A DNA stretch of 64,000 bases from a virus (lineage: Duplodnaviria; Heunggongvirae; Uroviricota; Caudoviricetes). The DNA lies in IMG/VR virus record IMGVR_UViG_3300045988_138358. One strand, given 5' to 3'. The notes beneath the pieces are model-generated. The model did not search any database, was not told the origin of the DNA, and saw nothing but the letters and a program-made list of their open reading frames with translations. Shown here piece after piece: positions 4,318 through 61,990 of the stretch. The translations under genes and the position numbers were made by a program. The stretch's first letter is position 1. Each line of letters starts with the position of its first letter.

Positions 4318-4694
4318 GCGCCCACCCCGCTTGATTTCTGCATAACAATATCCATGCTTCCACCTTTCGCATAAAAACTAATTAATAAAGAATCTTCAGA
4401 AATGGATGTACAGCGAATCCCCTGCACATCTAAACCAGGTAGATCTTGTCGTAGTTTTGTCATCATTCTCCCTTCAATAGCCACTTCGACTATGTGCGAA
4501 GTTTCAGAGCCGAATGGTTCATGCTTAAATTCTTCCATTGGATTTCCCCAGGACGGTAACCCATAAACGCTTCCTTCCGGGGTTCGTAGCCACTCGTCAA
4601 GGCGAGCCATCCAGGCTGCTGTATTTCCCTCTGCAATAATGACACCGCTTTCGTTCGTTTGAAGTCTTGCGTCTATTTCGTAAAGCATCAGCAT
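4314..4694 (-). CDS. baseplate wedge protein, gpW/gp25-like
   Basis: ORF track 126 aa; LRTPEGS motif and size match the gpW/gp25 family as I recall it; overlaps neighbours on both sides. Confidence 0.5.
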   Translation of the reverse strand: MLMLYEIDARLQTNESGVIIAEGNTAAWMARLDEWLRTPEGSVYGLPSWGNPMEEFKHEPFGSETSHIVEVAIEGRMMTKLRQDLPGLDVQGIRCTSISEDSLLISFYAKGGSMDIVMQKSSGVGA

Positions 4695-7600
4695 TAATCC
4701 TCCAGCAGAGCATCCAGCGACGGGTCATTAATAGTTGTGCTCGCACGTGGTCGCGGCTGCGGCTGCGATGTTTTGACAACCTTATCTGGATCGCCTTTTG
4801 TATTATTTTTGTTCACATTCAGAAGGTCTTTCAGGATGGAACAGACGTTATCCAGCGCCTTCAACATAGCAGGATCGTTATTTGCAGTGTCAGTAGTTAA
4901 TGGTTGTCTTATTCCGCTTCGAGCAAGATCGGTTACAGTGGGAAGCTGTGGCGGCATAGCAAGAAAAGGTTCCTGCACGGCTGACGCAGTGCCAAATATG
5001 GCGTTATTTGCCTCAGTTGATATTCCTTTGATGCTATCGGCAGTTTGTTGAATGCCATTATTTAGCCAACCACCAGCACTTTTTGTAAGTGGGCTAATCG
5101 CCCTGGCGATTGTTGAATTCTGCCCTGTAGCCTGATAGACAAAATCATTTAATATGCCAGTGCCATCGATGCCACCAACAAGCTGTGAAACGTTATCACC
5201 AATTGCAGGTAATACAGCCGAACCAATGCGCTTTATGCCTGTTAATGACGAATCAAACAAAGAACCAAGAAATCCCTTATCTTCGCCGTCTATTACCTTA
5301 TTGCCATTGTCATAGACCGGAATCCCTTTTGAGTTTACAGGTGTTTTTTTATTCTCTGTTGGCTGTGCAGCGTCAGAGAGAAGATCGACCGAAGACATAT
5401 CGCGTTCAGGTGTCGGCCTTTTTTGTATAGCCTCCCTGATATCAGCTACCTGTGGTGCTTTTTTGAATCCAAAAGATTTTCCGGTTAAGCCGGATATTTT
5501 TTCAGTCAGAGCCTGATCCATTCCCTTCGCCTTTTCTGAAAGCGAAGATATAGAACCAAATGAAGTAGCCGACGCAAAATCCTTCACCAAGTCCAGACTT
5601 GTTCCAGCAAGACTGGTAGCCGCGCCGCCAAATAAATCACTTACTCCACTGATACCGCTTTCATTTATGGCGATTAACCGCTCAAGCAAACTCGATGGCG
5701 AGCCAGTATTAACATCAGCGTTCTCTGGAATAATCGGTTGTGGTCGGTTACCTGTTTTTTGTGGCTTTTTGGCTGCCTGGGCATGTTGTGCAACCTCAAT
5801 TGGCTTAGGTGTTGCTGTTGGGACTGCATTCAATACAGGTTGTGCCGGAGATGTACCATCAGCATATCTCACCTTGCGACCAACGCTATATTGCGAATCA
5901 CGAGCAATTAGCTGACCGCCATTCTCTTTCTGAATTTTATTAAGCCGCGCCAATGTTTCATCGGAGAAGCGCCCCTCCCAACGACCGGTATTTGCATTGA
6001 ACGCCCCAAGAGCATTCTTAATAAACTCATTATTAACCGCAGGGTTTCCGCCTTCTTTCGTCGCAATAGCACGAACTAATTGCGTCATAACCTCCGGGTT
6101 GCTGACATCTATTTTTTCATTAGGCGATACACCAAGATATTTACTGACGTTATCAATATATTGGTTAGTATTGTTCTCATTTGGCGGTGCCCATTTTGAA
6201 ATGATGCTGGATACTGTTTGCAGCTTCTGATACCCGGCGGCAGCACTTGTACCGTTGTAATAACTCGATACCTGGTTTGCCAATGCCCGAATCCCTTCTT
6301 CGGGCGTATTAAACCGCGCAAAACGCTGTTCGCCTTTCGCGTTCGGCGCTTCCAGTACCGCCCCCTCCTGATTTGCAAAAACCAGGTTCCCCAGGTTGTT
6401 ATTCCGGTAATTCCTGTTCTTGGCGTTGCTTCCGCCTATATTCAGATCAGCCGTTATTGTATTTTTTTCAGGCGCTTTAAATTCGTCTGGCGATTTGTAG
6501 CCGTGTTCACCCACGCCATCCTCACCACTGCGCCCGCCCTGTAGCTGTCGGGCCAGATCATTAATTGCGGCTACCGTTTGCTTGGTGCCATCTTCAACGG
6601 CTTTCTTAACCTGCGCAGTGCCTTCGCTGCTTGATGAGAACGATTCTTTTAGGCTGCTGAATACGTTTTTTGTCGTGTCTATAGAACTATTTATGCCACG
6701 AGCAATATCTCCAGTATCAAAATTCTGAAGTTTTTCACCAGCCCCCTCAAAGCCTAACGCAGAAATCCCTTTACCTATCAGGTTGGTTGCGCCAGAAACT
6801 AAGCCGCCCATATCAAGCACATTAGCTGTTGCGTAAGCCGATTTTTGCTGTCTGGACACAGCATCATCATCACTTAAGCCAAAAGCTGCCTTTTGCGCCT
6901 CTGTATCTGTGTAACCATCTATGGCGTCATATCCAGCCATTGCCAGCGAACCGATGATAGGGACCGCTCTTGCCGCTGTGGATGCTGCTGATTTAACACC
7001 TATTTTTGCTGCACTTTTGAGGGCTACAGATTCAGTTTTTTTCTTTGCAATGACTTCGCCGGTTTTAATGGTGGCATCTTCAGCCACAACACCAGCTGAC
7101 TTCACGGCCTTAGCAGTATTTTTTGTTTCCTTTGCAATCCCCTTTGATGTATCGCTGATAGTGCTTACATCTTTGGGTTTGCTGATCTTATTTTTAACTA
7201 CTTTTGCTGCTCCGACACCAGTGCCAGCCGCAGCGCTACCGGCAGCAACTTTTTCGCCAGCGGAGAGTGCTTTTTTCCCAAGATTGCGGCCTTTCCTTTT
7301 CGATTTGTTCCGTTTATTTTTTCCCGTCTGATCACCAATATTGATTTTATTTCTTCTGCTTGCTCGATTTTTCCAGAGATCACTTAAGCCGAACTTATTT
7401 CCAGAAGACACTGATTTCCGAAGCTTAACTATCTCGTCAGAAACATTTTCCAGACCATCAATTATTTTGTTGTCATTGGTCTGAAGGATTTTGGTTTGCT
7501 CTTCTACTGCTTGTGCGGATTTTGTCTCAACAGCGTTATTGAATGCTTTTGCAGATGTTGCTTTTTGAGAATTCACCGCCGCCGGATAAGTAATTACTGG

Positions 7601-8485
7601 TGATATCGCTTTCGAGGCTGATGTTTCTTTTTTCCCCTTTTCTACCAATTCTTTAAGAGATTCTGCTTTACCTGTGATCTCTTTAGTTATGTCGTACATG
7701 CCACGAGCCGCCATCCATAACGGCCCACCAGCACCGACACCAGCTGCATTTGTTAAAGACTCTTCACTGGAAGACTGATTGCCATCTACCCCCATAATGG
7801 AACCTAGCTTTCTGAGAAAGCCAGCGTGTAATTTTGCGTCGGCTTTACGTGCGTTCTGCAATTCTTTTTTTCTGGCTACATCCTCATTGCTTTTTTGGGA
7901 TACAAAACGTCCATTACTATCCCGCAGCGGGCCTTTTAGACTTTGGGGGGATTGTGGTTCAAGAGGGGCTGAATTAGCAGCTACCGGTATAAAACCGTCC
8001 GATTTTCGGATGGTCTGACGTGATTGCACGGAGCGAACACTTTCTTGTGTGTTCGTTGCAACGATAGAGCGGTCCACGGTTTGGTTTATCGGTGCCCTTT
8101 CCTTTTTAGCAGGGAGACGTTTTTTATATGGGTTAGTTTTGACATCTCTAACGCTATCAGATGTACTTTGCTCGTAGTCTTTACGCCTGCGTGATAGTCT
8201 GTTGCTAACTCTGCCTTGCCTTTCGTCCTGTTGCGTTATGGTGCTTGCCCCAGAAAGAATGGCGTCTTTTACCTCAGCAAGAGCTTTAAGTTCGTTTGTG
8301 CTCGCCCCCTGTATAGCGTCAATTATTGCGATACGGTCTTTATTCTCTTTCAAAATAACCTCTCTTTTGCCAGCGCGATCAACGTTTCCCGGCTTGAGCT
8401 TTGTATTTTTCTTCCAGGGCTTTTGACATATGGAGTGCTCGCCATTGCGGTAATTGTTCAACGTCGCTAACGGGCTGATATCCAT
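4694..8485 (-). CDS. tail tape-measure-like / large internal tail protein
   Basis: ORF track 1263 aa, Ala/Gly/Lys/Ser-rich low-complexity stretches, immediately upstream of the baseplate genes. Confidence 0.5.
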   Translation of the reverse strand: MDISPLATLNNYRNGEHSICQKPWKKNTKLKPGNVDRAGKREVILKENKDRIAIIDAIQGASTNELKALAEVKDAILSGASTITQQDERQGRVSNRLSRRRKDYEQSTSDSVRDVKTNPYKKRLPAKKERAPINQTVDRSIVATNTQESVRSVQSRQTIRKSDGFIPVAANSAPLEPQSPQSLKGPLRDSNGRFVSQKSNEDVARKKELQNARKADAKLHAGFLRKLGSIMGVDGNQSSSEESLTNAAGVGAGGPLWMAARGMYDITKEITGKAESLKELVEKGKKETSASKAISPVITYPAAVNSQKATSAKAFNNAVETKSAQAVEEQTKILQTNDNKIIDGLENVSDEIVKLRKSVSSGNKFGLSDLWKNRASRRNKINIGDQTGKNKRNKSKRKGRNLGKKALSAGEKVAAGSAAAGTGVGAAKVVKNKISKPKDVSTISDTSKGIAKETKNTAKAVKSAGVVAEDATIKTGEVIAKKKTESVALKSAAKIGVKSAASTAARAVPIIGSLAMAGYDAIDGYTDTEAQKAAFGLSDDDAVSRQQKSAYATANVLDMGGLVSGATNLIGKGISALGFEGAGEKLQNFDTGDIARGINSSIDTTKNVFSSLKESFSSSSEGTAQVKKAVEDGTKQTVAAINDLARQLQGGRSGEDGVGEHGYKSPDEFKAPEKNTITADLNIGGSNAKNRNYRNNNLGNLVFANQEGAVLEAPNAKGEQRFARFNTPEEGIRALANQVSSYYNGTSAAAGYQKLQTVSSIISKWAPPNENNTNQYIDNVSKYLGVSPNEKIDVSNPEVMTQLVRAIATKEGGNPAVNNEFIKNALGAFNANTGRWEGRFSDETLARLNKIQKENGGQLIARDSQYSVGRKVRYADGTSPAQPVLNAVPTATPKPIEVAQHAQAAKKPQKTGNRPQPIIPENADVNTGSPSSLLERLIAINESGISGVSDLFGGAATSLAGTSLDLVKDFASATSFGSISSLSEKAKGMDQALTEKISGLTGKSFGFKKAPQVADIREAIQKRPTPERDMSSVDLLSDAAQPTENKKTPVNSKGIPVYDNGNKVIDGEDKGFLGSLFDSSLTGIKRIGSAVLPAIGDNVSQLVGGIDGTGILNDFVYQATGQNSTIARAISPLTKSAGGWLNNGIQQTADSIKGISTEANNAIFGTASAVQEPFLAMPPQLPTVTDLARSGIRQPLTTDTANNDPAMLKALDNVCSILKDLLNVNKNNTKGDPDKVVKTSQPQPRPRASTTINDPSLDALLED

Positions 8486-8499
8486 ATAGAGTCAGGTTG

Positions 8500-9321
8500 T
8501 TAATAATGGTTAGCCATCCATTCAGATCTAATTGATGGGATAAACTCTCTATTGAGAAAGGGGACGTACAGTGTGGTTGTCACATCTGCACCCTCCTTAG
8601 CGTTTTTGCAATGTTGCGGAGGCAGGATCAGTCGGCTTGTGCCTCTCTCAATAGACATTTTCAGGCCGTGGCGTAGGTCTTTTTGCATAAGCTGTATGCG
8701 AGCCACAAGCGGAGTAAATTCGGTTTCAAGCGCCATGCTTTCAATGATGTCAAAGCGTCGGTTAGCGGCCTGCGTGAAGTCCTCCGGATCGTCTTCAAGC
8801 GCCGTGCATAAAGCGAGTTCAGCAATTCGCATCCGTGCCACGCCAGCACTGTATTCGGGGCTTTTCATATCAGTAAGTGACGCTCGCATTCGTTCAAGGA
8901 GTTCCGCGCCTTTCCCGGTTAATGGTTTAAGTATCCAGTCAGTTGGTACTCCATTTACTGGTACGTTGGTTTTCACGTAAGGAGGTACAGTGAGTATTTC
9001 TACTGTTTGGGCCAGGTCGCTCAGGTTAATATCTGCATGATGCGTATTACCGCAGTGACTGCACTCATAGGAGTAGGTCATTACTGCATCGGGGCGCGAA
9101 TTAACAAATATCCACCAAAGAGCAGTTCTGCGATCCTGAACTGTCCAGTTAGCACTGTCGTTAATTTCACCATCCTGCATAGAGTTAAGGTACTCTGTAG
9201 TAGTAGCCTCATCTTCTGCCGGGTTCAGGTCAGAATATTTCAGCGCATCCTTCACGGTAGGGGCGTGGAACTGAATTTCTGTCTCAGGACGGGAAGGCAA
9301 TGGGAATTTTGGAATGTTCAA
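8500..9321 (-). CDS. hypothetical protein with Cys/His cluster (YSYECSHCGNTHH)
   Basis: ORF track 273 aa; sits between the replicon and the tape-measure-like gene. Confidence 0.35.
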   Translation of the reverse strand: MNIPKFPLPSRPETEIQFHAPTVKDALKYSDLNPAEDEATTTEYLNSMQDGEINDSANWTVQDRRTALWWIFVNSRPDAVMTYSYECSHCGNTHHADINLSDLAQTVEILTVPPYVKTNVPVNGVPTDWILKPLTGKGAELLERMRASLTDMKSPEYSAGVARMRIAELALCTALEDDPEDFTQAANRRFDIIESMALETEFTPLVARIQLMQKDLRHGLKMSIERGTSRLILPPQHCKNAKEGADVTTTLYVPFLNREFIPSIRSEWMANHY

Positions 9322-18056: not shown

Positions 18057-18088
18057 TGTTATGTGATTTAATTTTAGTTTTCTAACAC
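18057..18088. promoter_or_regulatory. operator-like site (degenerate TGTTATG-N17-TCTAACAC) in the divergent region between the capsid gene and 18103
   Basis: Recurrent motif, see findings. Confidence 0.45.
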
Positions 18089-35657: not shown

Positions 35658-35978
35658 TTTGACACCCCCAGCGCGAGTAAAGAATGCAGATTATCGCGTG
35701 AGTGGCGGACAACGAGTGATGGGAAAAGACAGTAGCTGTTCATAGTGTAGTGACTCCTTGCTTTCGGAGCCGCCTTCGACTGTTCCACGGTCTGGTGGCG
35801 GCGCAATAAAGGCTGGAACACCGTGAGTCAACGGGGGCTTTTCAGCCACCTATATTGCACCGCCATAGGTATAGCGGCGGCAATAATACGAAAAACTAAA
35901 CAGTTTGTCTCAAAAAGTTGACCGGTGTGCCAATCGGTAGTGAATGTACATCGGAGAAATTTACAATTCAACTTAAAA

Positions 35979-35989
35979 TGTTAGAAAAC
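35979..35989. promoter_or_regulatory. operator-like half-site TGTTAGAAAAC overlapping the ref stop codon
   Basis: Recurrent motif. Confidence 0.35.
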
Positions 35990-36567
35990 TAATTTATCAA
36001 TTCAATCGCCATCTGATACAACGTCATTTCATCGGCATTGTGCCGCATGAAATCTGCTTTTCCGCCTATTTTTCCATCAGCATGAACAGGGACCAGCCAG
36101 GGATATTGTTCTCGGACCTCGGCTGGCGCTGCGTACTGGTGGTGCCATTTACACAAAGGGAGGACATATTTATGCGCGTTCTCTGCCGTTCTCCCGAAGA
36201 TATGGTGCAGGGATACCACTGGGCTATGTTGCCCGTGAATATGGCAGGCAATGCAGGGGAGAGTACCGATAGCGGTCTGTATCCGGCGTTCATCGGCTGT
36301 GAGTGATCTGCCCTTCAGGCCGCGTGACGTGCGTGTTTTTTTGGGCGGAGCGGATACCGCTTTATCTTTTCTCCGCTGTTCATATTGCTTTGCTTTTTCA
36401 ATTTTCTTTTGCCGATATTCAGGCGATGCGGCTTTTTCTCTCGCTCGCTGCTGCTGGCGTTGAGCTTGTTGAAGGCGCTTTGCCCTTTGTTCCTCTCGCC
36501 AGGCTGGGTCAGCCAATTTTTGCATGGCTTTTTGTCTCTGTTTCTCCCAATAACTCTGTTTCTGCAT
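35989..36567 (-). CDS. ref: Ref-like HNH endonuclease (P1 recombination enhancement function family, tentative)
   Basis: ORF track 192 aa; Lys/Arg/Gln-rich N-terminus plus C-terminal Cys/His nuclease-like core. Confidence 0.5.
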   Translation of the reverse strand: MQKQSYWEKQRQKAMQKLADPAWREEQRAKRLQQAQRQQQRAREKAASPEYRQKKIEKAKQYEQRRKDKAVSAPPKKTRTSRGLKGRSLTADERRIQTAIGTLPCIACHIHGQHSPVVSLHHIFGRTAENAHKYVLPLCKWHHQYAAPAEVREQYPWLVPVHADGKIGGKADFMRHNADEMTLYQMAIELIN

Positions 36568-40711: not shown

Positions 40712-40741
40712 TGTTAGATTGTTGATTTTAATTTTCTAACA
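40712..40741. promoter_or_regulatory. operator-like inverted repeat TGTTAGA-N16-TCTAACA
   Basis: About 40 nt upstream of the 40784 gene. Confidence 0.55.
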
Positions 40742-40783
40742 TATTATTTTACCGCTCGGAACAAAACAGAGTCGGTATGCATT

Positions 40784-47239: not shown

Positions 47240-47270
47240 GAAGCCCGCCAGACCAGGCGGGCTTTTTGTT
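47240..47270. terminator. intrinsic terminator between humD and the convergent minus operon
   Basis: Hairpin AGCCCGCC-loop-GGCGGGCT followed by TTTTGTT. Confidence 0.65.
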
Positions 47271-47274
47271 GATA

Positions 47275-48369
47275 TCATTCAATGATTTTTTCGGCTGTCA
47301 GCCAGCTAATTTCGTGCCTGTCTTTCGGCGGTTTTAGCATGTGAGCATATTCAGCGACATGCTCCCACGGAATTGTTTTTGCCCACTCAACGATAGCATT
47401 GTGATCTGCAGTGAAGAGTGGAATAGTGTGCGATTTCAACCATTCTAATGTCGTGACGCCATGTTTTTTGGCGTGGTGCTGCGCATGATGCCGGGCTATC
47501 ACTCGTAATGGCATTGTCCATTCACTACCATCAGGCATCGAAAAGCGCATTGTCTTCGGCATATCTGATTCAAGAACAGCCTCCCTAATACCAGGGAACT
47601 CACCAAGAATCATACGACGATAGTCATCACTATTTCGCCCGCCATACCTTTCGGCAAAATGATCAAGATATTCTTGGGTAATAAATGGTGAATCCTCCGC
47701 ACTCAGCTTAATGGCTTTATATACACCACTCGGATTATCTTCAGCTAAAGCACGTCCATGATGTGAATCATAAAAAAAGCCTATTTCCTCTGGTGACGGA
47801 ATTGAAGTGAGCAATATGCGTGAATCACCACTAGTCATGCTTGCCCACACAATGCTGTATGCCCGATCGCTGATATGTGCGGAATCCACAATAATGAATA
47901 AAAGATGGTCGGCGTAGTGACCTGCAATGCTATCTTCATAGTTAAGGCGGTAGTTACAAAAGCACATTCCCCAAAATTCATTGAACATCAGACCGCTATC
48001 ACCGACCTTAAAATACTCAATGATAAAAGGTTGTTTTTTCAGCAATGCCTCCCAACATTGCCACACATATGCAACAATTCCTCTTTTGCAAACATTTGAT
48101 TTTGGATAAACAATTACTGTCCGGGAATCAGGATACATAATCGTATAAAGGGTACTAATAACAGCAAGCACTTGCGGTCGTCCGATCCCATACGGAGTGG
48201 TGACAGTAGCTTTTGCATTATTGGGCTGTATAGCTTCAACAATTTGTTGTTGCTGGTGGCTTAAATCAATATCAAACAATTCTTTTGCTGCCAGTACCCA
48301 ATTGTCTTTATATTTCTCCACCAGCGACAGCCAGCGCGGATCTTTATAAATATTGCTCTTAGTCGCCAT
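47275..48369 (-). CDS. terminase large-subunit ATPase-domain paralog with degenerate Walker A and B, no nuclease domain
   Basis: ORF track 47275-48660; likelier start ATG 48369. Aligns by eye with the PacB-like protein at 53517-55025, but GHGTGKS is PYGIGRP and LDEAS is VDSAH. Confidence 0.6.
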   Translation of the reverse strand: MATKSNIYKDPRWLSLVEKYKDNWVLAAKELFDIDLSHQQQQIVEAIQPNNAKATVTTPYGIGRPQVLAVISTLYTIMYPDSRTVIVYPKSNVCKRGIVAYVWQCWEALLKKQPFIIEYFKVGDSGLMFNEFWGMCFCNYRLNYEDSIAGHYADHLLFIIVDSAHISDRAYSIVWASMTSGDSRILLTSIPSPEEIGFFYDSHHGRALAEDNPSGVYKAIKLSAEDSPFITQEYLDHFAERYGGRNSDDYRRMILGEFPGIREAVLESDMPKTMRFSMPDGSEWTMPLRVIARHHAQHHAKKHGVTTLEWLKSHTIPLFTADHNAIVEWAKTIPWEHVAEYAHMLKPPKDRHEISWLTAEKIIE

Positions 48370-49126
48370 CTGCCACTTCCTTAACTTCTTCTTTGGCCTG
48401 TTCTGCAATCGCCGCACGGCATTTCGCCCTGGCCGTAGCGATTGCTTCAGCACGCACATCATCAGGAATCGTTGACGTGATATACATATCCAGTTCTTCG
48501 GCGCGGAACACTGTTTGGTCCAGATATTCGCGTAGCATCCAGGTAAATTCGAAATCACACGCGATAATCTCTGCGCTACCTTCTGCACCATTTGGGAAAT
48601 GAATAAAAGCCTGTTTAGCCAAACCGATAACACGACATGCGGTTGCCAAAACAGCGGCAACCAGGTTTACATTTTCACACGCTACGGGCTGATTAACGCC
48701 GGAGATTACTCCATTTAACTGTCGGTTATATGGAAGGTAGTTTGAGATGCGTTCTACGCGCCATGTGCCAGTCAGGCTGCCATTCTTAAAGATAATTGGT
48801 GTAACGGATAGCCCAAGCTCGCGTATAAGTCGTTGCGCTATAGCAGGATCATTAAACATGTCTAATGCTACACATTCGAAAGACTGTGCAAGGGTAAACA
48901 GTTCTTCCAGAGAGTAGTCTTTGCCCCTGGCGGTGATGTAACGATGAACGCCGCTTTCTGCATCACTCCATATAGCTACGCCATGCTCTTCATTCAGCTC
49001 TTCATTAAAGCCGAGATACGTCATGATAGTACGTTCAATCGTGTCAAACGGCAGTGACATGTCGGCGTTAACAGCCACCAGCAGGCCATTACGCAAGCGG
49101 TATTGAATTGCTTTAGTATTTTCCAC
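48359..49126 (-). CDS. hypothetical protein
   Basis: ORF track 255 aa; overlaps the downstream gene start. Confidence 0.35.
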   Translation of the reverse strand: MENTKAIQYRLRNGLLVAVNADMSLPFDTIERTIMTYLGFNEELNEEHGVAIWSDAESGVHRYITARGKDYSLEELFTLAQSFECVALDMFNDPAIAQRLIRELGLSVTPIIFKNGSLTGTWRVERISNYLPYNRQLNGVISGVNQPVACENVNLVAAVLATACRVIGLAKQAFIHFPNGAEGSAEIIACDFEFTWMLREYLDQTVFRAEELDMYITSTIPDDVRAEAIATARAKCRAAIAEQAKEEVKEVADGD

Positions 49127-49132
49127 GTTAAA

Positions 49133-49597
49133 TCACTCCACTACAAACCAGTCACATGCCAGTAAGTCGCCTACAGAAGGCGCCCACGGAACAACTACAC
49201 CTTGTGCATTTTTTAAGGCGAAATAAGCACCATACGGAACGAGATCGCCGGGGAAATATCCCTTAATGGCTTCCATTCGTGCCGGGTACTGTCCTTCAGG
49301 AACCAGCCAGCAGAATTGGTTTTCGCCGTTCCACCCGCGCCGGGCAACTTTCTTGCCATCCTTCAGCCACATCAGCGCGTCAGAAAAGTCGGCTGCTTCA
49401 AGGTCGATTTCTTCTTGCTGGGTGGTGATGCCACCAGCAGAAATAGTTACGCTCCCGGTAAGATTAATCATCACGCCGTTGTCATCCGTAATGATGACCG
49501 TGGTTCCATTTTTGGAGGCGTCGTTAACCAGGCCATAGCGTTCCTCAGATGATTTGGGAAGGAACTTAAAAAGCTCTTTCGTTGCCATGTTATTCAT
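49133..49597 (-). CDS. fusion protein with C-terminal DUF2829-like (Tad2-like) domain
   Basis: ORF track 154 aa; C-terminal ~90 aa (ALMWLKDGKKVARRGWNG .. VVPWAPSVGDLLACDWFVVE) match the DUF2829 hallmark pattern as I recall it. Confidence 0.55.
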   Translation of the reverse strand: MNNMATKELFKFLPKSSEERYGLVNDASKNGTTVIITDDNGVMINLTGSVTISAGGITTQQEEIDLEAADFSDALMWLKDGKKVARRGWNGENQFCWLVPEGQYPARMEAIKGYFPGDLVPYGAYFALKNAQGVVVPWAPSVGDLLACDWFVVE

Positions 49598-49611: not shown

Positions 49612-50106
49612 TTATAACTTTTCGTACTGAAGCGGTGAACGCTTAATTTCAAAGTGGCCTTCCGATGTGCTACCAAAGCCACCAGCGCCTCGCTCTGTTT
49701 CATCGAGTTCATCAACTTCTACCAGCGATACCGGTTCAACACGCTCAAAAATGCCTTGCATGACCGCCATTCCTGGCTTGAGGCAAACGCCTTCACCACC
49801 GGGATCTGTAATCAGTTTTGCCATGATTTCACCGCGATAATCGGAGTCGATAATTCCTACGCAGTTAGCCAGGCGAGTATGTTTTTTGCAGCCCAATCCG
49901 GAACGCGGATAGAGTTTCAGACACCAGCCGGGCGGGATCTCCATAGCCAGTCCGGTGTACACCCACCAGCTTGAGGAAATTGCACCATTGCTATCGACAC
50001 ATGGTTTTATTTCAACAGCCTCAAAATCCATCGCCGCCGATCCGGAGGTGGCATAAGCTGGAAGTTTTGCTGCCGGATGTAGGCGTTTCACTTTTACGTA
50101 AATCAT
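49612..50106 (-). CDS. dut: dUTPase (trimeric dUTP pyrophosphatase family)
   Basis: ORF track 164 aa; motifs SAAMDF, GIIDSDYRGE and RGAGGFGSTS. Confidence 0.8.
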   Translation of the reverse strand: MIYVKVKRLHPAAKLPAYATSGSAAMDFEAVEIKPCVDSNGAISSSWWVYTGLAMEIPPGWCLKLYPRSGLGCKKHTRLANCVGIIDSDYRGEIMAKLITDPGGEGVCLKPGMAVMQGIFERVEPVSLVEVDELDETERGAGGFGSTSEGHFEIKRSPLQYEKL

Positions 50107-50579
50107 TGTTTTTTAGCTCTCTGCGTGAATGTGTAAACCCGACGTTTGATATGTGGAACGGTAGGAACAGGAAGACAGGAACTTTCAATAACTCCTTGCT
50201 CCTCCAGCGATCGCACCGCCCGCAAGAACTGCGACGTGTCGCCGCCAAACTGGCGGGCATAGGTGCTGCCGTTATGAAGTATTTGAGCTATTACCCGAGC
50301 TTTTGTCTGGCTGTCACGATATGCGAATAGCCGCACGGCCTCTTCTGGCGCAATCGCTAACTGATAGCCTTTCCCGGCACGGTGTCGAATGAATCCATGC
50401 GCCAGTAGGTTTTTGAGTTCGTTACGAGTGCGAACAGATCCGTAACCCAGGAAGTGTGGATTGATAACGACTGGCTTAAACCATTCCGTAGGTGCTTTAG
50501 CTAATAGAGCTAACAGCTTCCCGGATAATTCTGGATAGGAAGACGGGTAACAATTCAGAGATGGGTAATAAGTTTTCAC
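50103..50579 (-). CDS. hypothetical protein
   Basis: ORF track 158 aa. Confidence 0.3.
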   Translation of the reverse strand: MKTYYPSLNCYPSSYPELSGKLLALLAKAPTEWFKPVVINPHFLGYGSVRTRNELKNLLAHGFIRHRAGKGYQLAIAPEEAVRLFAYRDSQTKARVIAQILHNGSTYARQFGGDTSQFLRAVRSLEEQGVIESSCLPVPTVPHIKRRVYTFTQRAKKQ

Positions 50580-50920
50580 CGACGCCCCCTTGCAGGATAT
50601 CGACCGGCATTAGTATCCGGTGCAATAAAGCCGGTAGTGGGGCGAGTGAAAGCGAGATTAATCTTCTCGACCATAGTGCGATAATTTTCCTGATAGTGGG
50701 CCAGGAGTTTTTCGGCGGCAATGATGGTTACTTTCCGGACGTAGCTTTCTGCTTCCTCCAGATTTCGCCAGTTTTTTTCGAGGGTAAACACAGGGACGGC
50801 CTCAAGCCCGGTCATGATGCCGAACACAACGACAGCATGACTGTTCTTAACACCAGCGGCGAAGGTTACGGTGTAACCATCCACCTTGAAGCGTCTTGAT
50901 TCCGTGATTTGACTCTGCAA
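50576..50920 (-). CDS. hypothetical protein, first gene of the operon
   Basis: ORF track 114 aa; TTG start preceded by GGAGG. Confidence 0.3.
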   Translation of the reverse strand: MQSQITESRRFKVDGYTVTFAAGVKNSHAVVVFGIMTGLEAVPVFTLEKNWRNLEEAESYVRKVTIIAAEKLLAHYQENYRTMVEKINLAFTRPTTGFIAPDTNAGRYPARGRR

Positions 50921-50993: not shown

Positions 50994-52022
50994 TTACGAA
51001 TCCATCAGGCGGCTATTAGCCCCCACAGACACGCCGCCACGGCGAAGATACCGCATAAGTGTTTCCGGTTTCTTCCAGGTTCCTTCCTGCATGATCTCCA
51101 CCATAGACACCTGCTTTTCAGCCATATCAATAGCGGCCCCGACGCGTGCACTATGCCCGGTCCACGTCCGGTATCTTCCTTTGTTTGGCGTAGCATCTCT
51201 TTTATTCAGCAACACCCAGGCGTCGCTGAATATTTTCTCCATTGCAGGTGCAGTAAGGGGCGTTGTCGTGATCCTGGCCTTATTGCTACGGTGTATCGGC
51301 GGGAACAGCACTGCGTCAGGATGTTCGCGAAGCCCGGAAACATCCAGCCAGTCATTCAGCACAGCGGTAGTGCGACGGGAAAGCACCTTATCAAGCCCGG
51401 CGGCGGTCGTTATTGTCTTCGTGTGTGAAATATGTAGCGTGACAGTGTCACCTGTTTGGTCCAGATCTCCTACACGAATACGCGAGATTTCCGACATACG
51501 CATCAGCGTATTGTATGCAACAAAGAGAAAAGCCCGGTTGCGCAGGTCCACCAGCCGTTCTGACCTGGACAACAGGACGTCGAGCAGTTTCAGATCGTCC
51601 CACCGCAGCGGTATAGCCTGGCCTGTTCGTTCGCCTTTTTCAGTTGCCGCTTCGCGCCGGATGCGCCGCATAGCCAGAGAAACACTTTTATCATCCGAAA
51701 GTGGCGGAAGGCCACAATGCGAAAGCAGCATGTTCAGCATGGCGTAGTGCTTATCAATGGTGGTCGAAGCCAGATCGGCATCATGCAGCTGAAGAAAATA
51801 CTCGCGGGCCATTTCTGGTGAGATCGGAAACCAGGCAAGCTGGCGAGCGTGACACCAGCGCGCCCAGGAATGAAACACCAAACGGAGGTCGCGCAGAGTA
51901 TTCGGCGCATAAGCTCCCTGGTCATTCATGAACCGCATAAAGTTTTCTGCGGCTTCCTGGTACTCTTTGCCAATGTTGCGCAGAAAACCACCGGAACTGC
52001 CAGAGATAATTAATTCACTCAT
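50994..52022 (-). CDS. cre: Cre-like tyrosine site-specific recombinase
   Basis: ORF track 342 aa; C-terminus WTGHSARVGAAIDMA..EIMQEGTW..MRYL matches P1 Cre (WSGHSARVGAARDMA..EIMQAGGW..MNYI) as I recall it, catalytic His/Arg/Trp/Tyr in place. Confidence 0.85.
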   Translation of the reverse strand: MSELIISGSSGGFLRNIGKEYQEAAENFMRFMNDQGAYAPNTLRDLRLVFHSWARWCHARQLAWFPISPEMAREYFLQLHDADLASTTIDKHYAMLNMLLSHCGLPPLSDDKSVSLAMRRIRREAATEKGERTGQAIPLRWDDLKLLDVLLSRSERLVDLRNRAFLFVAYNTLMRMSEISRIRVGDLDQTGDTVTLHISHTKTITTAAGLDKVLSRRTTAVLNDWLDVSGLREHPDAVLFPPIHRSNKARITTTPLTAPAMEKIFSDAWVLLNKRDATPNKGRYRTWTGHSARVGAAIDMAEKQVSMVEIMQEGTWKKPETLMRYLRRGGVSVGANSRLMDS

Positions 52023-52173
52023 GAAACTATTTAACCTCTATATACAGATGACGCTACGCGAAAAATATAAAAATGACAGGGTAGCTATAAGTTAATTTTC
52101 AAGATTCAAGCCTTTGATTCGATGCACGTATTTTCAGTGATGTCAATACTGATCATCTACCCATGATTATAGC

Positions 52174-52207
52174 CTAACTTTAAATAATGCCAATTATCTA
52201 AAGTTAG
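52174..52207. other. lox-like site: 13-bp inverted repeats around an 8-bp spacer (CTAACTTTAAATA-ATGCCAAT-TATCTAAAGTTAG)
   Basis: Seen directly; arms match 12 of 13; same 13-8-13 layout as loxP; ~150 bp upstream of cre. Confidence 0.6.
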
Positions 52208-52379
52208 AAATTTAGGAATTTTTTTCCTTTCCGCGCAGATGGGCAATGCATTGCTGGTGTGGGCTTTAAGTTATGCCTGGCAGTTTTTAAGCAGAATTTT
52301 CTAAATTGGATGATAAAAAAATGCATCTTGATCCTTTACTCACCCTGTTATTCGGCATAGATTTGTCATAGTAATTTTA

Positions 52380-52390
52380 TGTTAGAAAAC
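52380..52390. promoter_or_regulatory. operator-like half-site TGTTAGAAAAC just upstream of the 52408 gene RBS
   Basis: Recurrent motif. Confidence 0.4.
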
Positions 52391-52407
52391 TAAATCGAGT
52401 AGGAATA

Positions 52408-53445
52408 ATGAGTAAGAAGTCGATCGAGAAAGAGTACAAACGGTTCCTGCAAACCGCTGAACGGTGGAAAGAGCTGGTGGTCGCAAACTCTGTTTTCCAT
52501 GATACCAGTTATTCCGGCGAGGAATTCCGCCATGTTGCACTAACACATGATCAGAATGTGCTAGAAGAAGCTGAAAAGTGCCTCACAGAATGGAAAGCCT
52601 TTGTTGACTTGTGCCGTAACGCTGACGGCAAAGCGTCTAACATTGTTGAGTCTGTATATTCTCCGATCCCATTCATTATCGAGGACACAAATCAAAGCAC
52701 GCATATTGTTGTGCAAAGCGCGACCACCACCCGCTCATTTACGCGCGAAAATCTGCTCAAAAAATATGATGCAATTATAAAGAAAAGCCTGAAAAACAAG
52801 ATATTTTCGCAGATTGTTGGTGCACTTGAAGAAGAGCGCCGTTTTTTCGCATCAGAACCTGAAGGGGAAGTTTACCGGGCGCGCAAAGATGGATACACAG
52901 ATGTAGTGCTTACAACAAACATTGAAGGCAGCAATGCTCTGTCACGATTCAGGGTAGGCGCACACGGAGCCTTAGTGTTCGCAAAACTTCCGAACACCAC
53001 AGTGCCCGTTGTTAATAATGTCGGCGAACGTCGCAGCATTACTATTTATTCTGGGGTTGAGTCGATACCTTGCGGCCTGCTTGGTGACTTTAGTCTCTAT
53101 CGCGTTCGCGATCTGGAGAAACACCAACCAAGCTATGTTGCGAAGTCATACATCTTGCGAAACATCGACATCCGCAATGAGAGCTTAAAGAACAAATCAG
53201 CCAAAATGCTTGAGGAAGCCGATCCGGCTATTCGCCATATCATTGAGCGTAAAATACAGACAGCACGCGAAGCGATGGCGAGACTGAATAAAATGGATCT
53301 GGAGTTGTTAGACGTAATGATGACATCCGGAGATGACCTGACAGGCATAAAACTGACAGACGCGCGGAAAAGATACGGTAAAACCATAGAAGAACGTTAC
53401 GGGTTCACTTTCTCCCAAACACAGCACGCCGCTAAACTCTGGTAA
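52408..53445 (+). CDS. hypothetical protein
   Basis: ORF track 345 aa; AT-rich upstream region; between lox-cre and the terminase genes. Confidence 0.4.
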   Translation: MSKKSIEKEYKRFLQTAERWKELVVANSVFHDTSYSGEEFRHVALTHDQNVLEEAEKCLTEWKAFVDLCRNADGKASNIVESVYSPIPFIIEDTNQSTHIVVQSATTTRSFTRENLLKKYDAIIKKSLKNKIFSQIVGALEEERRFFASEPEGEVYRARKDGYTDVVLTTNIEGSNALSRFRVGAHGALVFAKLPNTTVPVVNNVGERRSITIYSGVESIPCGLLGDFSLYRVRDLEKHQPSYVAKSYILRNIDIRNESLKNKSAKMLEEADPAIRHIIERKIQTAREAMARLNKMDLELLDVMMTSGDDLTGIKLTDARKRYGKTIEERYGFTFSQTQHAAKLW

Positions 53446-56778: not shown

Positions 56779-56856
56779 TAATCCCCCAGGCAGGAAATGA
56801 CCGAGGGGATGATAATGAGAATGTTATTTCTGTATAGACTGGCAAAAAGTTGGTTA

Positions 56857-56886
56857 TATTAGAAAATTAATTCCATTCATCTAACA
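56857..56886. promoter_or_regulatory. operator-like inverted repeat TATTAGA-N16-TCTAACA
   Basis: Between the 56887 gene stop and the 56778 gene start. Confidence 0.5.
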
Positions 56887-60434: not shown

Positions 60435-60576
60435 ACATCTTAAAAAGACCTTCCGTGGCTCAACATGTCTTGTCGTTTACTCCGTAAAGTGCTCTCTCTG
60501 AAACCACTTTACGCACTAAACCTGCTGAACTTTGGCTTGCTCGGTGCCAAAGCGAATCCCTGTATGCATGTAATTT

Positions 60577-60584
60577 TCTAACAC
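60577..60584. promoter_or_regulatory. operator-like half-site TCTAACAC in the tRNA island
   Basis: Recurrent motif. Confidence 0.35.
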
Positions 60585-60709: not shown

Positions 60710-60740
60710 TGTTCGTTTGGTGAAATTAGATTTCTAACAC
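60710..60740. promoter_or_regulatory. operator-like degenerate palindrome (TGTTCGT-N16-TCTAACAC) at the 3' end of the 60742 gene
   Basis: Recurrent motif. Confidence 0.4.
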
Positions 60741-61950: not shown

Positions 61951-61982
61951 TGCAGTTCCCATTGTTTTTGCAAAATTAGTTT

Positions 61983-61990
61983 TCTAACAT
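61983..61990. promoter_or_regulatory. operator-like half-site TCTAACAT ~25 nt upstream of the 61962/61950 gene
   Basis: Recurrent motif. Confidence 0.4.

What the first reader, a model, noticed from the sequence alone, without database searches (positions are those of the whole stretch)
49133..49597. Tad2-like (DUF2829-like) domain fused to an unknown N-terminal domain
The C-terminal ~90 residues (FSDALMWLKDGKKVARRGWNG ... VVPWAPSVGDLLACDWFVVE) follow the hallmark pattern I recall for DUF2829, the family of the Thoeris anti-defense protein Tad2 that sequesters cyclic signalling nucleotides. Here the domain carries a ~65-aa N-terminal extension. A resident phage-plasmid encoding a signal sponge would alter the host's defense landscape.
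Basis: partly seen in the sequence, partly recalled or inferred. Interest (0 to 1): 0.75.

Follow-up and report, generated by a model that had tools for sequence, protein, structure and literature searches.

The report
Shortened Tad2 signal-sponge gene, phage-plasmid
This gene on a D6-like phage-plasmid of E. coli encodes a complete Tad2-type "sponge" domain, the kind phages use to soak up bacterial alarm molecules, but its N-terminal "extra domain" is only what an internal deletion left of a longer protein, and Tad2 genes in these plasmids have already been reported.

Summary
Window 49133-49597 (minus strand) is a 154-aa ORF. Residues 70-153 match Pfam PF11195 (Tad2-like/DUF2829) at E=2e-22. 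The AlphaFold model hits only Tad2 crystal structures, and the closest is ModTad2 bound to His-ADPR (45-48% identity). The core pocket residues are kept: GWNG loop, W138, S141, D144.

The "unknown N-terminal domain" is not a domain. The window comes from a D6-like, P1-related phage-plasmid (pEC7-3). Most relatives encode 216-233-aa proteins with three parts: a small OB-fold domain related to the phage L decoration protein Dec, a beta-rich linker, and Tad2. This allele has a 213-bp in-frame deletion that removes the OB domain. It keeps 15 N-terminal residues, the linker and the whole Tad2 domain. Phage D6 carries an independent 237-bp in-frame deletion. Both short alleles are widespread (at least 115 and at least 1000 contigs), so they are probably functional, although PGAP flags this copy as a pseudogene.

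The most likely function is a tetrameric sponge for TIR-derived ADPR signals (anti-Thoeris). Which ligand it binds cannot be told from sequence.

The family is annotated in RefSeq, and a 2025 preprint reports Tad2 in 93% of D6-like phage-plasmids. This is a new, untested member of a known kind, of modest interest.

The parts
49133..49597 (-). 154-aa ORF: an in-frame-deleted allele of the P1/D6 phage-plasmid Tad2-family gene (D6 orf114 homolog)
   Evidence: ORF list. The exact protein is found on at least 115 contigs / 246 blocks of public assemblies, always in the same D6-like context. PGAP marks this copy in pEC7-3 as a pseudogene 'missing N-terminus'.
49136..49402 (-). Complete Tad2-like (PF11195) domain, aa 66-154
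   Evidence: Pfam E=2e-22. End-to-end alignment to ModTad2. AF2 pLDDT about 90-97. Foldseek top 24 PDB hits are all Tad2, best 9eib at E=1.8e-9. Five synonymous versus one nonsynonymous difference against D6.
49325..49336 (-). GWNG loop (G88 W89 N90 G91), equivalent to the ligand-contacting W25/N26 of SPO1 Tad2 and W21/N22/G23 of HgmTad2
   Evidence: Alignments. Residue roles are taken from 10.1101/2023.05.01.538930 and 10.1101/2023.11.15.567273. W89 is invariant in 60 homologs.
49166..49186 (-). W138-A-P-S141-V-G143-D144 pocket segment. W, S and D are conserved (SPO1 W73, S76, D79). G143 replaces SPO1 T78, HgmTad2 T92 and ModTad2 Ser. A139 is this allele's only amino-acid difference from D6, SJ46, Ro157c2YLVW and pMTY12355_3.
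   Evidence: W138 and D144 are invariant in alignment A2.
49403..49546 (-). Beta-rich linker (aa 18-65: EERYGLVNDASKNGTTVIITDDNGVMINLTGSVTISAGGITTQQEEIDL). It is retained from the full-length protein and corresponds in position to the C-terminal spike region of Dec.
   Evidence: AF2 predicts four short strands at pLDDT about 63. The profile of N-domain plus linker aligns to Dec residues 53-121 at E=7.4e-6. The linker alone does not retrieve Dec.
49547..49597 (-). Native start codon, first 15 codons (MNNMATKELFKFLPK) and the deletion joint (codons 16-17, 'SS'). Relative to full-length alleles, 213 bp (71 codons) are missing here.
   Evidence: DNA alignment with pMTY12355_3 and D6. The joint lies at a short AAA(T) microhomology. 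D6 has a different 237-bp in-frame deletion at an AAAAA microhomology.
49612..50106 (-). dUTPase gene immediately upstream, 14-nt gap
   Evidence: Pfam PF00692 E=1.3e-13 and phrog_135.
48359..49126 (-). IsaA-like gene (phrog_2326, function unknown), 6 nt downstream. It travels with the Tad2 domain as one module in both D6-like and P1-like elements.
   Evidence: The megablast match to SJ46/Ro157c2YLVW covers window 49086-49456 at about 96% identity. No Pfam or PDB match.
47275..48369 (-). 364-aa ORF (phrog_5902, function unknown), last gene of the apparent operon. The upstream part of the listed ORF overlaps the isaA-like gene.
50103..50920 (-). Two small ORFs (D6 orf116/orf117 homologs, function unknown) between the recombinase gene and dut. 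Their ends overlap by 4 nt.
50994..52022 (-). Cre-like tyrosine recombinase (D6 'dre'), first gene of the same-strand gene string
52166..52193 (-). Sigma-70 promoter-like site (TTGGCA-16-TATAAT, 11 of 12) upstream of the recombinase gene. Candidate promoter for the 7-gene string.
   Evidence: consensus scan only; 3 sites found against 9.5 expected in shuffles.
47243..47258 (-). Terminator-like hairpin directly after the last gene of the string
   Evidence: consensus scan only.

Best explanation
The ORF is a shortened but intact allele of the Tad2-family gene carried by most P1/D6-type phage-plasmids. [quoted passage not shown] It left the native start codon, a beta-rich linker and a complete Tad2 domain.

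By homology, the Tad2 domain should assemble into a homotetramer. Its inter-subunit pockets would be built from the GWNG loop (W89, N90) and the W138/S141/D144 segment. These pockets would bind and sequester a TIR-produced ADP-ribose-derived alarm molecule (3'cADPR/gcADPR, His-ADPR or N7-cADPR), so the Thoeris effector is never activated. This would protect the phage-plasmid when it infects, or is induced in, a Thoeris-carrying Enterobacteriaceae host.

Shown here: domain identity, fold, completeness, conservation of core pocket residues, the deletion, operon context and wide distribution. Inferred: tetramerisation, ligand binding, the anti-Thoeris phenotype and the timing of expression. The ligand cannot be assigned. 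The nearest characterised relative is ModTad2 (His-ADPR, and cUMP in a second pocket), but four specificity positions differ from both ModTad2 and SPO1 Tad2.
For: - Pocket. W89/N90/G91, W138, S141 and D144 align with SPO1 W25/N26, W73, S76, D79 and with HgmTad2 W21/N22/G23, W87, S90, D93. W89, W138 and D144 are invariant across 60 homologs.
- A stand-alone domain of ~88 aa is sufficient in characterised members.
- Open, maintained gene. The native ATG and upstream sequence are identical to those of full-length alleles. The exact protein occurs on at least 115 contigs, and the independently deleted D6-type allele on at least 1000. The Tad2 domain shows 5 synonymous to 1 nonsynonymous changes against D6.
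- Context. The gene sits in a tight same-strand gene string with a promoter-like and a terminator-like site.
- Literature. Tad2/AcrIIA7 was detected in 93% of D6-like and 56% of P1-like phage-plasmids.
Against: - No experiment exists for this protein or any P1/D6 homolog.
- PGAP annotates this copy as an incomplete pseudogene.
- Specificity positions differ from characterised members: SPO1 T65/D67/H71/T78 correspond to N130/Q132/V136/G143, and ModTad2 has T/D/A/S at those positions.
- The effect of the 69-aa N-terminal remnant on tetramerisation is unknown.
- The few synonymous changes may predate the deletion, so they do not prove selection on the shortened form.
- Tad2-family members vary widely in targets: CBASS, Pycsar, and Thoeris types I, II and IV.
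Confidence: 0.7

Rival explanations
1. The gene is a decaying, non-functional remnant (pseudogene). Deletion of the N-terminal domain inactivated the protein, and the ORF persists only because the deletion happened to be in frame.
For: PGAP flags it 'incomplete; missing N-terminus'. The locus is deletion-prone. Known rearrangements include the D6 237-bp deletion, P0082 with a deletion into the Tad2 domain, the dUTPase-Tad2 fusion P0027, absence from P1 and a split copy in RCS47. The N-terminal remnant is predicted with low confidence.
Against: The Tad2 domain is complete and is the part that suffices for function in SPO1 Tad2 and ModTad2. The start codon and upstream region are intact. The identical allele is on at least 115 contigs and the D6-type short allele on at least 1000, more than any single full-length variant listed in that cluster. 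There is no frameshift or stop, and substitutions run 5 synonymous to 1 nonsynonymous.
Confidence: 0.12
2. It is a functional sponge, but its main target is not a Thoeris signal. It would instead bind a Pycsar cyclic mononucleotide (cUMP/cCMP, as in MoTad2's second pocket) or a CBASS cyclic dinucleotide, using the pocket formed by the insertion between beta2 and beta5.
For: The closest characterised relative, MoTad2, binds cUMP/cCMP at the dimer interface formed by this insertion. The window's insertion (VPEGQYPARMEAIKGYFPGDLVPYGAY) resembles MoTad2's (VPGGVYKSQTDVIKNTFGEEVKYRPY) in length and pattern. This insertion is the most variable part among P1/D6 alleles, as expected for a specificity element. 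Tad2 homologs inhibit CBASS and Pycsar as well as Thoeris.
Against: The HgmTad2 cGG/cGAMP contact residues are not conserved. R31 corresponds to V99, K46/S47 and N85 fall in segments absent here, and only F70 is kept as an aromatic (Y122). The MoTad2 cUMP-contact residues are not given in the text I could read, so that pocket could not be checked. The canonical ADPR-type pocket is conserved, so Thoeris-signal binding remains the simplest expectation.
Confidence: 0.15
3. The N-terminal ~65 residues are a functional module in their own right, which is the spirit of the first reader's view. The retained beta-rich segment could be an oligomerisation 'spike' like the C-terminal tail of Dec, changing the valency or localisation of the sponge.
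For: Both independent deletions (window and D6) remove the OB domain but keep the same linker from 'KNGTTVIIT' onward. The profile of N-domain plus linker aligns through Dec residues 90-121, the region that forms the trimeric spike. The linker is conserved in two sequence types across P1/D6 alleles.
Against: The linker alone gives no significant match to Dec or any PDB entry and no Pfam hit. AF2 confidence is low. The linker evolves fast, with pN 0.28 against pS 0.41 between types. A trimeric spike does not fit simply with a Tad2 tetramer. Some relatives (P0106, P0048, P0091) lack this segment.
Confidence: 0.1
4. It is an AcrIIA7-type anti-CRISPR that inhibits Cas9.
For: The DUF2829 protein AcrIIA7 (HgmTad2) was originally reported as a type II-A anti-CRISPR. 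It matches at E=1.7e-10, and detection tools label the family 'Tad2 AcrIIA7'.
Against: Li et al. could not reproduce Cas9 inhibition by HgmTad2 or its homologs, in vitro or in vivo. Yirmiya et al. argue that the family is anti-Thoeris. From general knowledge, E. coli and Salmonella do not carry type II-A Cas9 systems.
Confidence: 0.02

Closest known systems
ModTad2 / MoTad2 (Myroides odoratus prophage Tad2; PDB 9EIB with His-ADPR, 8V3E apo)
   Different: ModTad2 is a stand-alone 88-aa protein, whereas the window protein has a 69-aa N-terminal remnant. The pocket-lining positions differ (ModTad2 T/D/A/S against N130/Q132/V136/G143). Binding of His-ADPR or cUMP is untested here.
SPO1 Tad2 (gp34.65; PDB 8SME/8SMF/8SMG), founding member
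   Same: Same domain, with the same tetramer-forming alpha1 and the same core contacts (W25, N26, W73, S76, D79 correspond to W89, N90, W138, S141, D144).
   Different: Only about 32-35% identity. The insertion is shorter and different; in SPO1, F44 stacking occludes the second pocket. T78, H71, D67 and T65 are not conserved. SPO1 Tad2 belongs to a lytic Bacillus phage, not a plasmid prophage.
HgmTad2 / AcrIIA7 (PDB 8KBI-8KBM, 8WJC)
   Different: The cyclic-dinucleotide pocket residues (R31, K46/S47, N85) are absent or replaced, so pM cGG binding is not expected. T92 corresponds to G143.
Full-length P1/D6 phage-plasmid homologs (SJ46 J46_0048, vB_EcoM-Ro157c2YLVW gp12, pMTY12355_3 WP_311042694; 216-233 aa) and D6 orf114 (146 aa)
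   Same: The Tad2 domain is identical or nearly so (0-1 amino-acid difference), the downstream isaA-like gene is the same, and D6-like elements share the same operon.
   Different: Full-length forms carry an extra ~80-aa OB-fold domain. D6 lost it through a different deletion (237 bp against 213 bp). In P1-like elements the gene lies between ssb and isaA, next to the dar/ddr anti-restriction operon, rather than downstream of dut.
Phage L decoration protein Dec (PDB 6E3C)
   Different: The window allele has lost the OB domain. The linker similarity is not significant on its own. There is no evidence that any of these proteins binds capsids.

Membership tests
Tad2 / DUF2829 (Pfam PF11195) signal-sponge family | Sequence match to the PF11195 profile above the gathering threshold, covering the whole domain | tested here: met
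   79.9 bits against a cut-off of 25, E=2e-22, profile positions 2-73 of 73. End-to-end alignment to ModTad2.
Tad2 / DUF2829 (Pfam PF11195) signal-sponge family | [quoted passage not shown] | tested here: met
   [not shown]
Tad2 / DUF2829 (Pfam PF11195) signal-sponge family | Conserved ligand-pocket core: Trp-Asn of the GWNG loop, the second Trp, and Ser and Asp of the WxxSxxD segment | tested here: met
   W89, N90, G91, W138, S141 and D144 align with SPO1 W25/N26/W73/S76/D79 and HgmTad2 W21/N22/G23/W87/S90/D93. W89, W138 and D144 are invariant in 60 homologs.
Tad2 / DUF2829 (Pfam PF11195) signal-sponge family | Homotetramer (dimer of V-shaped dimers) that creates inter-subunit pockets | not testable with these tools
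   Only monomer prediction is available. Multimer modelling or SEC-MALS is needed.
Tad2 / DUF2829 (Pfam PF11195) signal-sponge family | High-affinity binding of an immune signalling nucleotide, and inhibition of the cognate defence system | not testable with these tools
   No experimental data exist for this protein or any P1/D6 homolog. The literature gives only a computational detection.
ModTad2 clade (type II Thoeris / His-ADPR binders) | Closest characterised relative is ModTad2, with a shared insertion architecture | tested here: met
   76 bits to ModTad2, against 44 (HgmTad2) and 38 (SPO1). The insertion is the same length with only a 1-residue gap.
ModTad2 clade (type II Thoeris / His-ADPR binders) | Conservation of the residues that contact His-ADPR (and cUMP in the second pocket) | tested here: inconclusive
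   The contact residues are not listed in any text I could read. At pocket-lining positions known from SPO1, the window differs from ModTad2 at 4 of 4 variable sites.
HgmTad2-type cyclic-dinucleotide (cGG/cGAMP) binding Tad2 | CDN-pocket residues R31, K46/S47, F70 and N85 | tested here: not met
   R31 corresponds to V99. K46/S47 and N85 lie in HgmTad2 segments that are gaps in the window protein. F70 corresponds to Y122.
Dec-like OB-fold decoration protein (phage L Dec) | OB-fold domain (Dec residues 12-89) | tested here: not met
   It is present in full-length relatives but deleted from the window allele. Only its last ~7 residues (EERYGLV) remain.
AcrIIA7 anti-CRISPR | Inhibition of type II-A Cas9 | not testable with these tools
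   The activity itself is disputed. No such target is expected in the hosts (general knowledge).

The most novel reading that the evidence does not exclude
The ancestral P1/D6 protein would be a composite: a Dec-like OB-fold plus spike module fused to a Tad2 sponge. On this reading, the repeated independent in-frame loss of only the OB domain is adaptive rather than decay. Those losses are this allele (on at least 115 contigs) and the D6 allele (on at least 1000 contigs). For example, the loss could free the sponge from a tether or partner, or remove a part that a host system senses. The retained spike-like linker would multimerise the sponge. A related possibility is that the altered pocket lining (N130, Q132, V136, G143) binds a signal not yet assigned to any Tad2.
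Probability: 0.1. Interest if true: 0.6.

Novelty: new member of a known kind. Interest (0 to 1): 0.3.

Why it matters
D6- and P1-like phage-plasmids are common in E. coli, Shigella and Salmonella, including clinically important lineages. A resident element that expresses a signal sponge could disarm its host's Thoeris-type (or Pycsar/CBASS) immunity. That would help the element itself and might also help unrelated phages that superinfect the host. Showing which signal this widespread allele binds, and whether it is made in the lysogen, would turn a database annotation into a testable piece of host-phage ecology.

The deletion series at this locus is also a ready-made natural experiment on what the accessory OB-fold domain adds to a Tad2 sponge. 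The series runs from the full-length form, through two independent OB-less forms and a dUTPase fusion, to complete absence in P1. As it stands, however, the core claim (a Tad2 homolog on a phage-plasmid) is already annotated and already reported in survey form.

Tried and rejected
- Identifying the N-terminal 65-69 residues. Pfam gave only noise (EFP OB E=0.098). PHROGs gave only unknown-function families. AF2 confidence was low. I rejected the idea of an independent domain once the alignment to full-length alleles showed a deletion joint.\n- Uniqueness of the deletion allele. I first inferred it was unique, because only 1 of 65 matching genomes among 5,426 complete E. coli genomes has it in one piece. 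The exact-sequence look-up corrected this: at least 115 contigs / 246 blocks carry it.\n- Linker-only profile against PDB, to test the link to the Dec spike. No significant hit. The linker-Dec correspondence is therefore reported as positional only.\n- P1 C1-operator consensus (ATTGCTCTAATAAATTT, up to 3 mismatches). Zero hits in the window. A different dispersed 17-bp motif was found instead.\n- Ligand-contact residues of ModTad2 (His-ADPR, cUMP) and the sequences and phenotypes of the 18 Tad2 homologs tested by Hadary et al. The Nature paper is not held, no supplements are held, and the methods and legends list no residues. A residue-level specificity call was not possible.\n- Function of the neighbours (isaA-like, 364-aa ORF, orf116/117). 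No Pfam or PDB matches, and only unknown-function PHROGs plus a weak terminase-like stretch.\n- AcrIIA7 anti-CRISPR reading. Rejected on the literature.\n- HgmTad2-type cGG binding. Rejected on residues.
Full report
**1. The observation**

Window 49133-49597 holds a 154-aa ORF on the minus strand, running from ATG to TGA.
- Pfam PF11195 (Tad2-like, formerly DUF2829) matches residues 70-153 over essentially the whole profile (positions 2-73 of 73). The score is 79.9 bits against a gathering threshold of 25, E=2e-22.
- A sequence search of the PDB returns seven distinct sequences at E<=0.001, all Tad2/AcrIIA7 entries. They include ModTad2 (9EIB 2.5e-20, 8V3E 3.2e-20), HgmTad2/AcrIIA7 (8KBI, 1.7e-10), SPO1 Tad2 (8SME, 1.2e-8) and SptTad2 (8WJD, 3.4e-8).
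- The alignment to ModTad2 is end to end (query 66-154 against chain 2-89 of 89), so the domain is complete.
- An AlphaFold2 model built on 60 homologs has pLDDT of about 90 or more across residues 70-154.
- All 24 Foldseek matches in the PDB at E<=1e-3 are Tad2 structures. The best is ModTad2 bound to His-ADPR, at E=1.8e-9 and 45% identity.

**2. Where the window comes from**

- The region is 96.6% identical to Escherichia phage D6, a P1-related plasmid prophage.
- It is 96-98% identical to more than 100 non-mobilizable ~90-kb plasmids of E. coli, Salmonella and Shigella.
- A 131-bp probe across the 5' part of the gene matches pEC7-3 of E. coli EC-07 (NZ_JCCJTA010000004.1) at 100% in one piece.
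- The gene order on the minus strand is: cre-like recombinase ('dre'), two small ORFs, dUTPase, this gene, an isaA-like gene, then a 364-aa ORF. The gaps are 14 and 6 nt, or the genes overlap by 4-11 nt.
- A strong sigma-70-like site (TTGGCA-16-TATAAT) lies upstream of the recombinase gene. A terminator-like hairpin follows the last ORF. Both are consensus matches only.

**3. The N-terminal 'domain' is a deletion scar**

Nearly all close homologs are 216-233 aa long. Their sequences share the window's first 15 residues (MNNMATKELFKFLPK). They then carry about 71 extra residues before rejoining at ...EERYGLVNDASKNGTTVIIT....
- A DNA alignment with plasmid pMTY12355_3 shows a clean 213-bp (71-codon) in-frame gap in the window. 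The gap sits at a short AAA(T) microhomology, and it creates the two junction codons 'SS'.
- Phage D6 has a different 237-bp in-frame gap at an AAAAA microhomology, giving a 146-aa protein.
- PGAP annotates the pEC7-3 copy as a pseudogene, 'incomplete; missing N-terminus'.
- Among 5,426 complete E. coli genomes, only pEC7-3 has the window's junction in one piece. An exact-sequence look-up corrects the impression of rarity. The identical 154-aa protein is on at least 115 contigs (246 blocks of the assembly collection) from Salmonella and E. coli, always in the same D6-like context. The D6-type 146-aa allele is on at least 1000 contigs.

**4. What was deleted**

- An AlphaFold2 model of the full-length relative P0001 has a confident small beta-rich domain at residues ~11-95 (pLDDT ~87-94). 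It also has a low-confidence beta-rich linker (97-135) and the Tad2 domain.
- Independently, a sequence profile of the N-domain finds Dec at E=2.2e-4, with a shared ...P.(V/I)GGYL....G.L.Y....AFE..Y motif.
- A profile that also includes the linker finds Dec at E=7.4e-6. That alignment runs into Dec residues 90-121, the region that forms Dec's trimeric spike.
- The linker alone retrieves nothing significant. I therefore treat the OB-fold relationship as supported, and the linker-spike relationship as positional only.
- The N-domain has no Pfam family but is recognised by PHROGs. phrog_872 is the two-domain OB+Tad2 family, and phrog_11049 and others cover the N-domain.
- BFVD shows many phage Tad2-like proteins of 150-290 aa, so extended Tad2 proteins are common.

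The window allele keeps only the last ~7 residues of the OB domain plus the linker. In its own model, residues 1-30 have pLDDT below 50 and residues 31-60 about 63.

**5. Is the shortened gene likely to work?**

- The part that suffices for function in SPO1 Tad2 (89 aa) and ModTad2 (88 aa) is intact.
- The residues that contact ligand in the solved complexes are conserved. W89/N90/G91 correspond to SPO1 W25/N26 and HgmTad2 W21/N22/G23. W138 corresponds to W73/W87, S141 to S76/S90, and D144 to D79/D93 (alignments; residue roles).
- W89, W138 and D144 are invariant in 60 homologs.
- The 88-residue domain is identical in D6, SJ46, Ro157c2YLVW and pMTY12355_3 despite 0-2 synonymous differences among them. 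The window differs from these by 3-5 synonymous changes and one replacement, V139A.
- With that count, a synonymous share this high has a probability of about 0.003 under neutrality (my calculation from S=60, N=204). These changes may, however, predate the deletion.
- The start codon and upstream sequence are unchanged.
- Two independently shortened alleles have spread widely.

I therefore favour a functional sponge (about 0.7) over a dead remnant (about 0.12).

**6. Mechanism and ligand**

By homology, the domain should form a homotetramer with two inter-subunit pockets. The pockets would enclose a TIR-derived ADP-ribose signal and keep it from the Thoeris effector (mechanism). Specificity cannot be read off.
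- The family as a whole inhibits CBASS, Pycsar and Thoeris types I, II and IV.
- The nearest characterised relative, ModTad2, binds His-ADPR in the canonical pocket and cUMP/cCMP in a second pocket formed by the beta2-beta5 insertion.
- The window's insertion resembles ModTad2's in length and pattern.
- At the pocket-lining positions known from SPO1 (T65, D67, H71, T78), the window has N130, Q132, V136 and G143, where ModTad2 has T, D, A and S.
- The HgmTad2 cyclic-dinucleotide contacts are not conserved. R31 corresponds to V99. K46/S47 and N85 fall in segments missing here. F70 corresponds to Y122. cGG/cGAMP binding of that type is therefore unlikely.
- The ModTad2 contact residues were not available in any text I could read.

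**7. Expression**

- In P1-like elements (SJ46, Ro157c2YLVW) the homolog lies between ssb and isaA, beside the hxr-ddrB-ddrA-darA anti-restriction operon. In P1, the ssb promoter carries a C1 operator.
- In this D6-like element the gene follows the cre-like recombinase and dut.
- The P1 operator consensus is absent from the window.
- A different 17-bp motif, ATGTTAGAAAACTAAAT, occurs 8 times against 0.15 expected. One copy lies just upstream of the C1-repressor-like gene at 52408. It is plausibly the D6-type operator.
- None of the 8 copies lies between 47243 and 52300. This is weak evidence that the recombinase-to-tad2 string is not directly repressor-controlled and could be expressed in the lysogen, as P1 cre is (general knowledge).
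- A precedent exists. [quoted passage not shown]

**8. Comparison with what is known, and novelty**

- RefSeq annotates the family as 'DUF2829 domain-containing protein', and UniRef as 'Thoeris anti-defense Tad2 family protein'.
- No functional test of any P1/D6 homolog was found.
- This analysis adds four points. The window's N-terminal extension is a deletion remnant. The lost part is a Dec-like OB-fold. Independent OB-less alleles are the common state in D6-like elements. The ligand-pocket lining differs from all characterised members.
- I rate it a new, untested member of a known kind, with modest interest (0.3).

**9. Other variation at the locus**

- P1 itself lacks the gene. Its annotated IsaA begins with the same upstream leader peptide and then continues directly into the isaA-like sequence.
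- In RCS47 the gene is split by an insertion.
- P0027 is a dUTPase-Tad2 fusion made by a deletion at a GAGG microhomology, and P0082 has a deletion into the Tad2 domain.
- Some relatives carry a C-terminal crAss001_48 domain.
- Among P1/D6 alleles, the beta2-beta5 insertion and even the GWNG loop vary. EWKG occurs in P0042 and P0072. This looks like diversification of the binding sites.
- The Tad2 domain plus the start of isaA is ~96% identical between D6-like and P1-like elements, while the upstream linker has diverged (pS 0.41, pN 0.28). The module therefore appears to be exchanged by recombination.

Noticed in passing
window 18072-18088(-), 35978-35994(+), 40726-40742(-), 52379-52395(+), 56856-56872(+), 60568-60584(-), 60724-60740(-), 61974-61990(-): A dispersed 17-bp motif, ATGTTAGAAAACTAAAT (up to 3 mismatches), occurs 8 times against 0.15 expected by chance. 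One copy sits directly upstream of the C1-repressor-like gene (52408-53445). It is probably the D6-type C1 operator. The P1 operator consensus gives no hit in the window.
   Followed up: partly
L006 (phage P1 NC_005856) 7570-8532; L002 (SJ46) 4048-4893: Phage P1 itself lacks the Tad2 gene. Its annotated IsaA starts with the same 56-aa leader that SJ46's annotation puts in front of its Tad2 fusion, then runs straight into the isaA-like sequence. The real start of the SJ46 protein is probably the internal MNNMTTKE (225 aa). In RCS47 the gene is split in two by an insertion.
   Followed up: partly
[not shown]
   Followed up: partly
P0027 (241 aa; 15 member sequences, 4 contigs up to 88.6 kb): This is a dUTPase-Tad2 fusion protein. 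It was created by a deletion joining dut (…ETERGAGG) to the linker (…SAGGITTQQ) of the Tad2 gene. It shows again that this locus is prone to microhomology deletions that stay in frame.
   Followed up: no
P0042, P0072, P0029, P0036 (216-218 aa) and P0007, P0011 (233 aa): P1/D6 Tad2 alleles differ in the ligand-binding parts. One group has EWKG instead of GWNG, together with a short, different beta2-beta5 insertion and PSVDD/PSVAD. Another group has a longer insertion (DKQGASRLTPIKHAANGDLEINFDSPLAPYGAH). This suggests diversification, or loss, of binding specificity within one element family.
   Followed up: no
window 49086-49456 vs L002 (SJ46) and L003 (Ro157c2YLVW): The Tad2 domain plus the first codons of the isaA-like gene are ~96% identical between D6-like and P1-like elements. 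The sequence on either side is not alignable by megablast, and the linker just upstream has diverged strongly. This is the signature of a recombining tad2-isaA module.
   Followed up: partly
P0037, P0039, P0045, P0054, P0105: Close relatives of the Tad2 domain (up to 83% identity) occur with a C-terminal crAss001_48-related domain (PF21825) instead of an N-terminal OB domain.
   Followed up: no
window 48359-49126(-) and 47275-48369(-): The two genes downstream in the same operon have no Pfam or PDB sequence match. They are the IsaA-like gene (phrog_2326) and a 364-aa ORF (phrog_5902, with a weak terminase-large-subunit-like stretch). Their constant linkage to the sponge gene makes them candidates for further anti-defence functions.
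   Followed up: partly
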